This document shows positions 12,121 to 14,286 of a DNA stretch of 64,000 nucleotides, piece by piece (positions within the stretch are counted from its first letter, which is position 1; the number at the start of each line of letters is the position of its first letter). The position numbers and the translations under genes were made by a program. The notes under the pieces were generated by a model. The model was not told the DNA's origin, did no database searches, and saw only the letters and a program-made list of their open reading frames with translations. Origin of the DNA: a virus; the IMG/VR virus record IMGVR_UViG_3300021178_000012, positions 15,027 to 79,026 of that record. The stretch is one strand, 5' to 3'.

Positions 12121-12188
12121 GGCGCCTCGGGTAAGTTGGTGTTCGTTGGTAATTTTGCGGTAACCAACGAACGTCGACCCGTGACACC
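12121..12188 (-). ncRNA. Y RNA-like RNA 3 (68 nt)
   Basis: Ends pair (GGUGUC/GGCGCC; CGGGU/ACCCG); bulged-C Ro helix GGU-C-GA/CUU-ACC; perfect 10-bp upper stem GUUCGUUGGU/ACCAACGAAC; followed by UUU; downstream of Ro60. Confidence 0.8.
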
Positions 12189-12190
12189 AG

Positions 12191-12263
12191 TTCCGGTTGA
12201 TGGGCTCGAACCACCGACGAGCGCGTTAACAGCGCGCTGCTCTGCCAACTGAGCTAAACCGGA
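12191..12263 (-). tRNA. tRNA-Asn(GTT), no encoded CCA, atypical discriminator A73
   Basis: TCCGGTT-TA-GCTC AGTTGGCA GAGC-A-GCGCG CTGTTAA CGCGC-TCGTC-GGTGG TTCGAGC CCATC-AACCGGA-A: complete cloverleaf. Confidence 0.88.
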
Positions 12264-12270
12264 ACAAAAA

Positions 12271-12401
12271 GGCGATTAGGTAAGTGGCGCCCGTTGGTAA
12301 AACGACGTCTTTCGACGTACGTGTGTGGGTTTCGAACCACTCGGTCAGCCTTTCGGCCTTCCTTTTTTCCAAGGTTAACCAACGAACATCGACCCAATGC
12401 C
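12271..12401 (-). ncRNA. Y RNA-like RNA 2 (131 nt) with multibranch apical domain
   Basis: GGC/GCC and AUUGGGU/ACCUAAU closing helix; GGU-C-GA/CUU-ACC; GUUCGUUGGU/ACCAACGGGC stem; two GAAA tetraloop hairpins and a UUCGAAA T-loop-like hairpin; UUUUU tail. Confidence 0.8.
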
Positions 12402-12404
12402 TAG

Positions 12405-12523
12405 GGGCAGCGGCGGGGCTCGAACCCGCGACCCAGGGGTAACCTTCGTTCGGCGGCCCGCGAGCGGGCAAGTTAATGAGCGAAGACTTTGTCTCTTGCT
12501 CTGCCAACTGAGCTACGCCACCC
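12405..12523 (-). ncRNA. tRNA-shaped RNA with 62-nt expanded anticodon arm containing a Ro-binding-type helix (tRNA/Y RNA hybrid)
   Basis: Acceptor GGUGGCG/CGCUGCC with G-1:C73; D arm identical to the tRNA-Asn; T arm GCGGG UUCGAGC CCCGC; insert contains CUU-GCCCG-CUCG-CGGGC-C-G. Confidence 0.75.
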
Positions 12524-12526
12524 AGA

Positions 12527-12591
12527 AGCGTCGGATAAGGAGCATCGGAAGGGGTCTACCCAAGAGAACCTTCCGACAACGACCCGACACC
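12527..12591 (-). ncRNA. Y RNA-like RNA 1 (65 nt)
   Basis: Starts 6 nt after the Ro60 stop; GGUGUCGGGU/AUCCGACGCU 10-bp helix; bulged C then G opposite CUU; upper stem GUCGGAAGG/CCUUCCGAU. Confidence 0.75.
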
Positions 12592-12597
12592 AGAACC

Positions 12598-14286
12598 TTA
12601 CGCCTCCTCTCGGTGAATTGCAACACCGCGCACAAAATTGGCGATGACGGCGGGCACGTCGGCGCTCATGCCGACGATGTCGAGCATTCCGGCATCGTTC
12701 GGGTCGGCAATCGTGAACGCCGTCGGAGTCATCGCAAGCACGCAGAGCTTCGCCGCGCGCCCACTCTGCTGCCGATACTCGCGCAGCGCCTGAAACGGGT
12801 GAACGTTGCCATGCCAAGTCTCATTGTCCGTGTAAATAGCAAACGCGTCGACATCGAACTTGTTCTTCGTTGCGTACCGCATCGGCAACGAGCAGTCGGT
12901 GCCGCCCATCGGGAGTCGATCAATCGTCCGGATTACGTCGTCGAGACGCTGCTTCGGCGAGATAGCGATCTCCGTGAAGCCGCAGTCGCCTCCGCCCCAT
13001 CGGCCACCCGGTCCGCCACTCGCCGCGGTGAACCCGAAGCAGTGCCAGTTCTTCTCCGTACGTGCCGTAACCATCGCGAGAGCCGCAGAAGCCTCGTGAC
13101 ACGTGAGCGGCATACCAGCGATCGGCGACGTCATCGACCCGGACACGTCGAGGCCGAGTAGCATGTTCTTGCCCGTCGGCTCCACCGTCTCGAAGGCGAG
13201 GTAAAACGCGGCGTCAAGTGCATCGACGATCTCTCGCTGCGGCTCCCACTTGAGCGAGCCCTTCTCACCGTGCCCTTGCTGGTATGTCTTCAACGCCACG
13301 AGCACGCTCATGGGGTGCACGCGCGCCTTCCTGAGAACGTCACGGTCTGCGAGCTTCTCTGCCGTTCTGCGGGTGGCGTTCGACATCGTCTTGAGCAAAC
13401 CAACCTCGGTCATCTTACCCAGATTCCGAATGAGCGCCGTCATCGGCATGCCCAAGAGCAACGCATCCCACACCTCGACGTGATTCTTCCACTGCGTGGG
13501 CAGCATCTCGTGCGTGAGACCGTGCTCGCGGATGATCGCGCAAATGCGCGACTTGTCATCCGTCTTCTGCGCTTCCTCAAACGCCCAGATGAACGGCGGT
13601 AACGTCTCCACCGCGTCGTACTTCGTAACCTTCTCGCCGCGCTTCACATCGCGCTCGCCGTTCTCGATTGGATTGACGACGTACCGGAAAAGGGCCTCGT
13701 GCTGCGGCGTCGGAGCTTTCGGGTGCGCCAAGCGCAAAAGATCTCGATGACTCCACCCGTCGCGCTGGCGATACTTGACCACCTGATTCGCAAGCTTGTC
13801 CGCCGGCTGCGCCGCGTACCACTTGGCAACTGCGTCGCGCAGCCCTCGCCCGAAGCCCCTAAATACCTGCGTGTCGCGCACGAAGTGAAAGAGGTGGGTG
13901 CCGATTCGGCAGACCTTCGGAAGCGCGTCGAGGGCGGCCTTGCGCGTCTTCGAGTCGGATTCGCTCGCGCACATGGCGAGCGCGAAGATCGCAGCGTCGT
14001 TCTTTGGGGCGAGCCCGCGGTACGACACGTCGACGATACGTGCGACGGTTCGAGCACCGTCCTCGCTAGCACACTCCTGTACGACTCGAGCGTTCTCCAC
14101 CGTGAGCGCCTTCTCGGACGCGTAATAGGTGCCTCCGTCAGCGCCGAGGACGAGGAACCGGTCAAGTCGCGACCACTTGTCGACGGTAAAGACGAATCCG
14201 CCAGCGCCGTTAACCTTCTGGTCGCTGCGCGCCGACTCGACCTGTGGCGTCTTCAAGGTAGAAAAATGCTGTCCGTAATCTGTCAT
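12598..14286 (-). CDS. rsr: Ro60/Rsr RNA-binding protein (TROVE + vWA domains)
   Basis: N-terminal NxAGGFVF...RLxRFLVLG.dGGTYY; KYRQRDGWSHRDLLRLAHP; MPMTALIRNLGKMT; vWA motif LDVSGSM, GGTDC, YTDNETW. AGGAGG RBS. Confidence 0.95.
   Translation of the reverse strand: MTDYGQHFSTLKTPQVESARSDQKVNGAGGFVFTVDKWSRLDRFLVLGADGGTYYASEKALTVENARVVQECASEDGARTVARIVDVSYRGLAPKNDAAIFALAMCASESDSKTRKAALDALPKVCRIGTHLFHFVRDTQVFRGFGRGLRDAVAKWYAAQPADKLANQVVKYRQRDGWSHRDLLRLAHPKAPTPQHEALFRYVVNPIENGERDVKRGEKVTKYDAVETLPPFIWAFEEAQKTDDKSRICAIIREHGLTHEMLPTQWKNHVEVWDALLLGMPMTALIRNLGKMTEVGLLKTMSNATRRTAEKLADRDVLRKARVHPMSVLVALKTYQQGHGEKGSLKWEPQREIVDALDAAFYLAFETVEPTGKNMLLGLDVSGSMTSPIAGMPLTCHEASAALAMVTARTEKNWHCFGFTAASGGPGGRWGGGDCGFTEIAISPKQRLDDVIRTIDRLPMGGTDCSLPMRYATKNKFDVDAFAIYTDNETWHGNVHPFQALREYRQQSGRAAKLCVLAMTPTAFTIADPNDAGMLDIVGMSADVPAVIANFVRGVAIHREEA

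What the first reader, a model, noticed from the sequence alone, without database searches (positions are those of the whole stretch)
12405..12523. tRNA with a Ro-binding helix grafted into its anticodon arm: a circular permutation of YrlA
Seen: normal acceptor, D and T arms, but the anticodon arm is 62 nt instead of 17. It folds as GUCUUCG/CGAAGGU, then AACUU-GCCCG-[CUCG]-CGGGC-C-GCCGAACG. This mirrors neighbouring Y3 (AACUU-ACCCG / CGGGU-C-GA) with a compensatory U-A to C-G pair, and GCCGAACG fits the GNCGAAN(0-1)G Y RNA motif. Established: YrlA keeps D, T and a loop-closed acceptor stem and has free ends on the Ro stem, which replaces the anticodon arm. Inference: here the topology is inverted (free acceptor ends, Ro helix capped by a tetraloop), so it could be an evolutionary intermediate between tRNA and YrlA, or an adaptor that tethers Ro60 to tRNA-handling enzymes. 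G-1:C73 is the tRNA-His identity pair, so it might even be aminoacylated.
Basis: partly seen in the sequence, partly recalled or inferred. Interest (0 to 1): 0.9.

Follow-up and report, generated by a model that had tools for sequence, protein, structure and literature searches.

The report
tRNA-shaped Y RNA beside phage Ro60
Next to a phage's Ro60 (Rsr) gene lies a small RNA gene built like a normal tRNA whose anticodon arm is replaced by the hairpin that Ro60 proteins recognise. It belongs to a large, apparently undescribed family found beside Ro60 genes in many phages and at least seven bacterial phyla, with the reverse layout of the known bacterial Y RNA, YrlA.

Summary
Window 12404-12523 (minus strand) has a tRNA acceptor stem, D arm and T arm, with a roughly 60-nt arm where the anticodon arm should be. 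That arm is a 9-bp stem, an asymmetric internal loop, and a short hairpin reading UUGCCCG/CGGGC-C-G with a bulged C. This is the Ro60-binding helix of Y RNAs, closed by a CUCG loop.

It is not a one-off. A covariance model built only from other sequences scores it 81.6 bits (E about 3e-22). One hundred members were aligned from phage and bacterial rsr loci. All lie on the rsr strand within 2.4 kb, and compensatory changes occur in the acceptor (7/7 pairs), the long stem (9/9) and the Ro hairpin (4/4). In five whole bacterial genomes, every long hit lies at rsr. Rfam 15 calls these elements only "tRNA", and I found no paper describing the layout.

The most likely function is an Rsr-bound Y RNA with tRNA topology, matured like a tRNA. 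Ro60 binding, processing and expression are all untested, because no RNA data were available. The tRNA-His/aminoacylation idea is weak. G-1:C73 is simply the family's usual eighth acceptor pair.

Earlier notes of this scan reported the same design on other DNA.

The parts
12598..14286 (-). rsr, a Ro60 ortholog of 562 aa
   Evidence: Pfam TROVE (E 8.6e-51) and vWA_Ro60 (E 2.8e-61). It is 47-50% identical to the 'Ro-like RNA binding protein' of Gordonia and Mycobacterium phages.
12527..12597 (-). Y1, a small Y RNA-like hairpin with paired ends and a GGGU-C-G box
   Evidence: Fold z = -2.42.
12404..12523 (-). The finding: a tRNA-topology Y RNA (whole element, including G-1 and discriminator C12405)
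   Evidence: Rfam tRNA 37.2 bits. Family model R1 81.6 bits, E 3e-22. Matches 32 of 33 conserved columns.
12516..12523 (-). Acceptor 5' strand GGUGGCG, preceded by G-1
   Evidence: Pairs with 12406-12412. G12523 pairs with C12405.
12498..12513 (-). D arm (GCUC AGUUGGCA GAGC), with A14 and G18G19
   Evidence: Nineteen nt are identical to the neighbouring tRNA-Asn.
12478..12486 (-). P2 5' strand, UCUUCGCUC
   Evidence: Pairs with 12443-12451, 8 of 9 standard pairs. In the family, 9 of 9 P2 pairs covary.
12472..12477 (-). 5' side of the asymmetric internal loop (AUUAAC)
   Evidence: The family loop is 5 nt in 74% and 6 nt in 17% of members.
12453..12471 (-). Ro box hairpin: UU-GCCCG, CUCG loop, CGGGC, bulged C12455, G12454 (pairs with U12470), C12453
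   Evidence: GGGC-C-G is at least 95% conserved in 100 members. P3 is 99.8% paired with compensatory G-C/A-U changes. The same box occurs in Y1-Y3.
12443..12451 (-). P2 3' strand, GAACGAAGG
12438..12442 (-). UUACC, the family's invariant UUAYC junction motif
   Evidence: GGTTAYC is invariant in MAFFT alignment A2. Its first U is 100% conserved in A5.
12413..12429 (-). T arm, GCGGG UUCGAGC CCCGC
12405..12412 (-). Acceptor 3' strand CGCUGCC plus discriminator C. No CCA is encoded.
12266..12402 (-). Y2, a larger Y RNA-like element with a GGGU-C-GA box, a T-arm-like hairpin and a U5 tail
   Evidence: Fold z = -3.0.
12191..12263 (-). tRNA-Asn (GUU)
   Evidence: ARAGORN and Rfam 62.6 bits.
12121..12188 (-). 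Y3, a small Y RNA with CGGGU-C-GA / AACUU-ACCCG
   Evidence: Matches the nematode stem-bulge (Y RNA homologue) model RF01656 at 43.5 bits, above its gathering score of 38. Fold z = -3.94.

Best explanation
The element is a non-coding Y RNA, a partner RNA of the phage's Ro60 ortholog Rsr, built on an unpermuted tRNA scaffold.

Shown:
- It has a tRNA acceptor stem, D arm and T arm with the elbow nucleotides intact.
- Its anticodon arm is replaced by a 9-bp stem, an internal loop and a loop-capped helix with a bulged C (GGGC-C-G opposite UUGCCC).
- It belongs to a family strictly linked to rsr and on the same strand.

Inferred:
- It is co-transcribed with rsr and the neighbouring Y RNAs.
- RNase P and a 3' tRNA-processing route (RNase Z or exonucleases, then the CCA-adding enzyme) cut it out. 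This would also define the ends of Y1 and Y2, which lie only 3-5 nt away.
- Rsr binds the bulged-C hairpin as Ro60 binds the conserved Y RNA helix.
- The L-shaped tRNA body then acts as the effector module, either recruiting a tRNA-recognising enzyme to Rsr or gating its cavity, as proposed for YrlA.

In layout it is YrlA with the ends moved. The acceptor stem is open and the Ro helix is closed, instead of the reverse.
For: - tRNA scaffold: Rfam tRNA 37.2 bits, with a 54-nt insert.
- Membership: model R1, built from 19 other sequences, scores the element 81.6 bits, E 3e-22. It matches 32 of 33 conserved columns.
- Structure in 100 members: 94.2% of cells are paired, against 73.0% in shuffles (0 of 500 reach the observed value) and 30-54% when partners are slid. 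Compensatory changes occur in acceptor 7/7, P2 9/9, P3 4/4 and T 4/5 pairs.
- Independent of the model, MAFFT plus RNAalifold recovers the acceptor, D and T stems with compensatory changes. In that alignment, 56 of 64 sequences have at least 9 of 10 P2 and P3 pairs.
- Linkage to rsr: 130 of 132 ARAGORN intron-type calls, and all 100 model hits, are on the rsr strand, 52-2425 nt away. In five bacterial genomes (27.7 Mb), all 12 long hits sit at rsr and every other hit is an ordinary 72-76-nt tRNA.
- Ro box: GGGC-C-G is at least 95% conserved. It equals the GG(U/G)CCG(A) core that Chen et al. relate to the GGUCCGA contacted by X. laevis Ro60. The same box is present in Y1-Y3 of this window.
- Precedents: M. 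smegmatis YrlA is Rsr-bound, cut by RNase P and receives CCA. Related phages L008 and L009 show the same alternation of small Y RNAs and tRNA-shaped units.
- CCA is encoded in 14 of 100 members, far above chance.
Against: - There is no direct evidence of transcription, processing or Rsr binding. No RNA run was listed.
- For this particular sequence the energy model prefers other folds. The family fold is -36.7 kcal/mol against an MFE of -48.9; the whole element has z = -0.76 and the insert z = +0.24.
- The base after the box is C here, giving a C.U mismatch where 58% of members have a U-A or U.G pair.
- Whether Ro60 tolerates a helix of only 5 bp capped by a tetraloop in place of free ends is not known.
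- The A5 alignment is fitted to the model, which inflates the pair counts somewhat.
Confidence: 0.75

Rival explanations
1. It acts only as a processing punctuation mark or tRNA decoy. On this view the tRNA body exists to direct RNase P and RNase Z cleavage that releases Y1 and Y2, or to soak up tRNA-targeting nucleases. The Ro-like hairpin would not be a functional Rsr site in this copy.
For: - The spacing to the neighbouring RNAs is 3-5 nt, and tRNA-Asn plays the same positional role between Y2 and Y3.
- This copy has a C.U mismatch next to the box.
- The phage also carries three conventional Y RNAs that could serve Rsr.
Against: - The Ro box is the most conserved part of the insert across 100 members.
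- This copy keeps every one of those bases.
- Many bacterial loci have only tRNA-shaped units with nothing to punctuate (43 loci with a single unit).
Confidence: 0.1
2. It is a chargeable or decoding tRNA variant, for example one charged by HisRS through G-1:C73, that delivers an amino acid or enters the ribosome.
For: - It has G-1:C73 and an intact acceptor/T minihelix.
- From general knowledge, HisRS relies heavily on G-1:C73.
- Some members encode CCA.
Against: - This copy has no anticodon stem-loop.
- The -1:73 pair covaries (G-C 39, U-A 19, U.G 7), so His identity is not conserved.
- An 8-bp acceptor with a 5-bp T stem is atypical for elongator tRNAs.
- No CCA is encoded here.
Confidence: 0.05
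3. It is a tRNA gene interrupted by an intron or insertion that is removed to restore a normal tRNA, or it is a decaying tRNA/Y RNA recombinant pseudogene.
For:
- Its D arm is identical over 19 nt to the adjacent tRNA-Asn.
Against: - The 'insert' is conserved, covaries, and carries invariant motifs in at least seven phyla and in phages.
- Removing it leaves no 7-nt anticodon loop.
- No bacterial splicing system is known for a 54-nt non-group-I insert.
- The element matches 32 of 33 conserved columns, which argues against decay.
Confidence: 0.03
4. The true RNA is a permuted, YrlA-type molecule formed across neighbouring units: the T arm and acceptor 3' strand of one unit with the acceptor 5' strand and D arm of the next.
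For: - In bacterial tandem arrays, adjacent units often share acceptor sequences. Cross-unit complementarity is at least 6 of 7 in 22 of 32 adjacent pairs.
- In mycobacteriophage Flabslab the Rfam YrlA hit spans the junction of two R1 hits.
Against: - In this window the neighbours are self-closed hairpins with no D or T partner.
- Within-unit pairing (6.85 of 7 acceptor pairs, 7.85 of 9 P2 pairs) exceeds cross-unit pairing (5.6 and 6.7).
- Cross-unit complementarity in phage arrays is only 2-4 of 7.
- The P3 loops are mostly 4-8 nt, leaving no room for transcript ends.
Confidence: 0.03

Closest known systems
YrlA (Y RNA-like A; Rfam RF02553; S. Typhimurium, M. smegmatis, mycobacteriophages; Chen et al. 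2014 PMC4201824; Wang et al. 2018 bioRxiv 10.1101/312249)
   Same: - It is encoded next to rsr on the same strand.
- It has conserved tRNA-like D and T arms.
- The Ro-binding stem occupies the anticodon-arm position.
- The module order along that stem is the same: stem, 5-nt loop, UU-G, box stem.
- M. smegmatis YrlA even acquires a free CCA acceptor end after RNase P cleavage.
   Different: - The topology is the reverse. YrlA runs Ro 5' strand, T arm, loop-closed acceptor, D arm, Ro 3' strand, with its ends in the Ro stem.
- Here the order is acceptor 5' strand, D arm, loop-closed Ro arm, T arm, acceptor 3' strand.
- The RF02553 score is 18 bits, against a gathering score of 69.
- The box has a bulged C like animal Y RNAs, whereas the Salmonella YrlA consensus pairs without one.
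Metazoan Y RNAs and nematode stem-bulge RNAs (RF01656)
   Same: - The Ro60 site is a helix with a single bulged C followed by G.U and A-U pairs: GG(U/G)C-C-GA opposite UUG(A/G)CC.
- The neighbouring Y3 passes the sbRNA model's gathering score.
   Different: - In those RNAs the helix is formed by the RNA's own 5' and 3' ends. Here it is an internal hairpin capped by a tetraloop.
- The effector part is a complete tRNA body.
D. radiodurans Yrn1
   Same: It is an Rsr-bound Y RNA with tRNA-like T (and partly D) features, and its effector module tethers Rsr to another enzyme (PNPase).
   Different: In Yrn1 the Ro stem takes the place of the acceptor stem and an anticodon-like hairpin is retained. 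Here the acceptor stem is real and the Ro arm sits at the anticodon position.
Circularly permuted tRNA genes (Cyanidioschyzon merolae) and two-piece/permuted tmRNA
   Same: These are precedents showing that tRNA-shaped RNAs exist in both permuted and unpermuted gene orders.
   Different: Those RNAs are matured into ordinary tRNA or tmRNA function. Neither has any Ro module.

Membership tests
tRNA (RF00005) | Score at or above the Rfam gathering threshold, with a 7-bp acceptor stem, D arm and T arm with a GTTCRA loop | tested here: met
   37.2 bits against a gathering score of 29. The stems are listed.
tRNA (RF00005) | Anticodon stem (5 bp) with a 7-nt loop presenting an anticodon | tested here: not met
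   A 54-nt insertion replaces it. Standard ARAGORN makes no call. The family alignment finds no P4 hairpin in this copy.
YrlA (RF02553) | Score at or above the Rfam gathering threshold (69 bits) | tested here: not met
   18.0 bits, E 2.6, and the match spans Y1 plus half of the element.
YrlA (RF02553) | Permuted order: 5' end in the Ro stem, then T arm, loop-closed acceptor, D arm, and 3' end in the Ro stem | tested here: not met
   The order here is acceptor 5' strand, D arm, Ro hairpin, T arm, acceptor 3' strand. The acceptor pairs covary between the two ends.
YrlA (RF02553) | Encoded within 4 kb of rsr on the same strand (criterion of Chen et al. 2014) | tested here: met
   It lies 75 nt downstream of the rsr stop codon, on the same strand.
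YrlA (RF02553) | GNCGAAN0-1G motif | tested here: inconclusive
   The literal match GCCGAACG is at 12454-12447, but it lies mostly in the P2 3' strand. The family-aligned box reads GCCGC here, against GCCGA in 58% of members.
Y RNA (functional class) | Bound by Ro60/Rsr in vivo | not testable with these tools
   No RNA or RIP data are available.
Y RNA (functional class) | Conserved helix with a bulged C and the GGNCCG core | tested here: met
   CGGGC-C-G opposite UUGCCCG, at least 95% conserved in the family.
rsr-linked tRNA-topology Y RNAs (family defined here by model R1) | R1 score above ordinary tRNAs (which reach at most about 61 bits), length over 105 nt, UUAYC junction, P2 and P3 with a bulged C, and rsr on the same strand | tested here: met
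   81.6 bits, 119 nt, UUACC at 12442-12438, pairs as, and rsr adjacent.

The most novel reading that the evidence does not exclude
The unpermuted, tRNA-topology form is the ancestral and, in many phyla, the main bacterial or phage Y RNA. On this reading:
- YrlA arose from tandem arrays of such units, combining the T arm of one unit with the D arm of the next. This would give a concrete origin for the 'dimeric tRNA' model.
- Some published YrlA predictions without mapped ends, such as those with 'longer acceptor stems', are mis-parsed tandem units.
- The free, 8-bp, CCA-ended acceptor arm is used functionally. It could couple Rsr to a tRNA-end enzyme (CCA-adding enzyme, RNase P/Z, a synthetase or RtcB-type repair), making Ro RNPs part of tRNA surveillance or of phage counter-defence against tRNA nucleases.
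Probability: 0.2. Interest if true: 0.85.

Novelty: new variant of a known kind. Interest (0 to 1): 0.7.

Why it matters
Bacterial Y RNAs are known from a handful of experimentally studied cases, and the only curated model, YrlA, has a permuted tRNA-like domain with no free acceptor end.

- A second, widespread layout with a genuine open acceptor stem would enlarge the known Ro60 partner repertoire. It occurs in phages and in Myxococcota, Verrucomicrobiota, Gemmatimonadota, Armatimonadota, Chloroflexota, Planctomycetota and Actinomycetota MAGs by record title.
- It may explain why YrlA was hard to find in some phyla. Chen et al. noted few hits in delta-proteobacteria and cyanobacteria.
- It gives the proposed tRNA origin of Y RNAs a living example of the unpermuted state.
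- It makes the question 'which tRNA enzyme does the Y RNA bring to Ro60?' testable with a molecule that has real tRNA ends.
- For genome annotation, these genes are currently missed or called tRNA pseudogenes or intron-containing tRNAs.

Tried and rejected
- DNA similarity to deposited phages found only the tRNA-Asn-like part and no homologue of the element.
- A single-protein search of viral contigs gave only 3 loci. A profile search was needed.
- MAFFT plus RNAalifold on 64 sequences recovered the tRNA stems but not P2, because of one-column register slips. I solved this with a register-consistent seed and a covariance model.
- Thermodynamic folding of the window element alone does not recover the family fold.
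- Expression: no RNA run holds the stretch.
- Reviews by Sim & Wolin 2018 and Sim et al. 2020, and the supplements of Chen 2014, are not held. I therefore could not check whether any supplementary YrlA prediction overlaps this family.
- The promoter/terminator scan was uninformative.
- The encoded CCA does not simply follow host convention. Only 2 of 12 sampled tRNA genes in one host genome encode CCA.
- Rejected readings: an intron-containing tRNA, a pseudogene, and a cross-unit permuted reading (see the rival explanations).

Full report
**1. What is at the coordinates**

The window is part of an 83.6-kb IMG/VR viral contig. ORF 12598-14286 (minus strand) is a full-length Ro60/Rsr ortholog. 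It has TROVE (E 8.6e-51) and vWA_Ro60 (E 2.8e-61) domains, and it is 47-50% identical to the 'Ro-like RNA binding proteins' of Gordonia and Mycobacterium phages.

Directly downstream on the same strand lie five structured RNAs, separated by only a few bases:
- Y1, 12527-12597.
- The finding, 12404-12523.
- Y2, 12266-12402.
- tRNA-Asn, 12191-12263.
- Y3, 12121-12188. It passes the gathering score of the nematode stem-bulge (Y RNA homologue) model at 43.5 bits against 38.

Y1, Y2 and Y3 fold clearly better than shuffled sequence, with z = -2.4, -3.0 and -3.9. Each pairs its ends through a GGGU-C-G(A/U) / (A)CUU-A(C/U)CC helix with a bulged C.

**2. The observation**

Rfam's tRNA model matches 12522-12405 at 37.2 bits (gathering score 29), with 54 nt in place of the anticodon loop. 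Standard ARAGORN does not call it. ARAGORN with introns allowed does.

The acceptor stem (7 bp), D arm and T arm are regular. The elbow and core nucleotides are in place (U8, A14, G18G19, the GUUCGA T loop, and G15 with C48).

The family alignment extends the outer stem to 9 positions: UCUUCGCUC with GAACGAAGG, with one C.A mismatch. It places the Ro-type helix as UU-GCCCG / CGGGC-[C]-G, capped by CUCG.

Energy-based folding does not single out this fold for this G+C-rich sequence:
- The whole element has z = -0.76 and the insert z = +0.24.
- The family fold is -36.7 kcal/mol against an MFE of -48.9.

The case for the structure therefore rests on comparison with relatives.

**3. Relatives**

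A profile of four Rsr proteins (A1) retrieved 80 viral and 80 bacterial rsr loci.

ARAGORN with introns allowed gave 132 'intron tRNA' calls of about 110-190 nt in 80 of the 167 loci held. Of these, 130 were on the rsr strand. Ninety-two share the motifs ...CUUGCCCG-loop-CGGGCCGA...GGUUAYC. In a plain MAFFT alignment of 64 of them, GGGCCG and GGTTAYC are invariant or nearly so.

RNAalifold on that alignment recovers the acceptor, D and T stems, with many double-sided changes. In the same alignment, 56 of 64 sequences have at least 9 of 10 standard pairs in P2 and P3 once one-column register slips are allowed.

I built covariance model R1 from 19 register-consistent sequences, not including the window.
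- It scores the window element 81.6 bits, E about 3e-22.
- Ordinary tRNAs reach about 61 bits at most.
- At E no greater than 1e-15 it finds 100 members in the 69 sources given to that search (68 of them with a hit), aligned as A5.

**4. Structure support**

| Measure | Observed | Control |
|---|---|---|
| Cells forming standard pairs | 94.2% | 73.0% in column shuffles (0 of 500 reach it) |
| Same, with 3' partners slid by 1-3 columns | (as above) | 30-54% |

Compensatory (both-sided) changes by helix:

| Helix | Pairs with compensatory changes |
|---|---|
| Acceptor | 7 of 7 |
| D stem | 3 of 4 |
| P2 | 9 of 9 |
| P3 | 4 of 4 (99.8% paired) |
| T stem | 4 of 5 |

- The pair next to the bulge is G-C in 94 members and A-U in 5.
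- The position opposite invariant G213 is U in 65 members and C in 33, and it is never unpaired.
- The alignment is fitted to the model, which favours the structure somewhat. The slide control and the MAFFT-based result argue that the signal is real.
- Independent thermodynamic support exists at family level. In 54 of 100 members the unconstrained MFE contains both P2 and P3, and in 86 it contains P3.

Because the acceptor pairs connect the two ends of each unit and covary, the topology is that of a tRNA and not that of YrlA.

**5. Family anatomy**

- The acceptor stem is 7 bp, plus an eighth -1:73 pair in 70 of 100 members (G-C 39, U-A 19, U.G 7). The next position outward, -2:74, pairs at chance level (39 of 100).
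- The D arm follows, then a variable joiner of 3-23 nt that sometimes holds a GNRA hairpin.
- P2 is 9 bp.
- The internal loop has 5 nt on the 5' side in 74% of members, against 1 nt on the 3' side.
- Next come U-A and U.G (or C-G) pairs, the bulged C, P3 (4-6 bp) and a loop.
- The junction motif UUAYC is invariant.
- In about 60% of members there is a 3-4-bp hairpin with a 7-nt loop of anticodon-loop style (YU-NNN-RA), with varied triplets.
- The T arm and the acceptor 3' strand complete the unit.
- CCA is encoded in 14 of 100 members. In one host genome only 2 of 12 sampled ordinary tRNA genes encode it.

The window copy lacks the anticodon-like hairpin, as do about 10% of members. Only in that sense does the Ro arm 'replace' the anticodon arm. 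In most members it is an extra arm between the D arm and a short anticodon-like arm.

The window copy matches 32 of the 33 columns that are at least 90% conserved in the other members, so it is not a decayed copy.

**6. Linkage to rsr**

- All 100 members are on the rsr strand. Sixty-two lie upstream and 38 downstream, 52-2425 nt away. There are one to three per locus.
- In five bacterial genomes searched whole (27.7 Mb), all 12 hits longer than 105 nt lie in the rsr locus. Every other hit is a 72-76-nt tRNA.
- The window's own contig has only this one copy.
- The two closest phage relatives by Rsr (L008 at 64% and L009 at 55% identity) have the same alternation of small end-paired Y RNAs and tRNA-shaped units downstream of rsr.

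**7. Permuted or unpermuted?**

YrlA's consensus order is Ro 5' strand, T arm, loop-closed acceptor, D arm, Ro 3' strand (PMC4201824; bioRxiv 10.1101/312249). Tandem units could in principle be read that way across unit borders.

Cross-unit complementarity is indeed raised in bacterial arrays, because neighbouring units are paralogues:

| Comparison | Acceptor pairs (of 7) | P2 pairs (of 9) |
|---|---|---|
| Within a unit | 6.85 | 7.85 |
| Between adjacent units | 5.6 | 6.7 |
| Between units of different loci | 4.2 | 5.4 |

- Phage arrays show only 2-4 of 7 acceptor pairs across units.
- In this window the neighbours are closed hairpins.
- The unpermuted reading is therefore the right one here.
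- In mycobacteriophage Flabslab the Rfam YrlA hit does straddle two weak R1 hits. This shows how one layout can be derived from the other.

**8. Mechanism**

Shown: a tRNA-shaped scaffold, a conserved and covarying Ro-type bulged helix, and strict linkage to rsr.

Inferred:
- It is co-transcribed with rsr.
- It is excised by the tRNA 5' and 3' processing enzymes, which would also trim Y1 and Y2.
- Rsr binds at the bulged-C hairpin.
- The tRNA body acts as the effector or gating module.

Precedents are Rsr-bound M. smegmatis YrlA, which RNase P cleaves in vivo and in vitro and which receives CCA, and the general tether model of Y RNAs.

The -1:73 pair covaries, so it looks like a structural eighth pair, and this copy has neither an anticodon loop nor an encoded CCA.

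**9. Known or new**

Rfam 15 assigns the members tested only to RF00005 (tRNA). None reaches the YrlA threshold.

Full-text searches found no description of an unpermuted, tRNA-topology Y RNA:
- Chen 2014 and Wang 2018 describe only the permuted form. They discuss an origin from dimeric tRNA transcripts, and the possibility that some YrlAs might be processed to look more like tRNAs.
- The 2025 Thermus phage Ro60 paper describes simple CGAA-motif RNAs.
- The 2026 tRNA-mimic preprint does not cover Ro partners.
- Two reviews and the supplements of Chen 2014 were not available, so a passing mention cannot be excluded.

Earlier notes of this scan reported the same design on other DNA (e1-3076673, e1-4760074, e1-1940638, e1-2307157). 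These are unchecked AI notes. I re-derived the family independently here.

**10. Verdict**

- The element is a bona fide member of a widespread rsr-linked family that is a new variant (unpermuted) of the tRNA-like Y RNA kind.
- Function as an Rsr ligand is likely but untested.

Noticed in passing
A5 alignment; window 12523 and 12405: Seventy of 100 family members have an eighth acceptor pair (-1:73), with G-C/U-A covariation. This gives an 8-bp acceptor plus 5-bp T stem, as in bacterial tRNA-Sec and, for the G-1:C73 pair, tRNA-His. It might set the RNase P cleavage site or keep the RNA away from EF-Tu.
   Followed up: partly
L099, L144, L143, L150, L165, L121 (bacterial tandem arrays): Adjacent units in one locus often have identical or near-identical acceptor stems while their P2 and D sequences differ. 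Cross-unit acceptor complementarity is at least 6 of 7 in 22 of 32 adjacent pairs, against 17% for units of different loci. This could reflect concerted evolution, a shared identity element, or alternative cross-unit pairing.
   Followed up: partly
A5 columns 231-274 (for example L162:2097-2219, L123:6303-6431): Sixty of 100 members keep a 3-4-bp hairpin with a 7-nt loop of anticodon-loop style (YU-NNN-RA). The triplets are varied (GUU, GAU, AGG, GCA, AUU and others). It is unclear whether this is vestigial or functional mimicry.
   Followed up: partly
L002:2158-2442 (Mycobacterium phage Flabslab, upstream of rsr): The Rfam YrlA hit (2235-2312) spans the junction of two weak hits of the unpermuted model. 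The first supplies the T arm. The second supplies the D arm plus a complete Ro hairpin. This looks like a hybrid or transitional arrangement between the two layouts.
   Followed up: partly
L006:1512-1574 (IMG/VR contig, about 0.9 kb upstream of rsr): A pistol ribozyme matches at 60.8 bits, against a gathering score of 34.5, in a viral rsr neighbourhood.
   Followed up: no
L099, L123, L141, L142, L144, L145, L148, L149, L155 (Myxococcota and Gemmatimonadota MAG contigs): Here rsr sits inside arrays of 10-19 ordinary tRNA genes on the same strand, with the tRNA-shaped Y RNAs interspersed among them. These may be mobile tRNA-array islands or prophages.
   Followed up: no
window 12266-12402 (Y2): This larger Y RNA has a Ro box, a T-arm-like hairpin (GUGG UUCGAAA CCCAC), no D arm and a U5 tail. 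[quoted passage not shown]
   Followed up: no
L143, L147, L150, L165, L097, L101, L140 (Armatimonadota-type loci): The first unit of each array encodes an 8-bp acceptor followed by A and then CCA. Only 2 of 12 sampled ordinary tRNA genes of one of these genomes encode CCA.
   Followed up: partly
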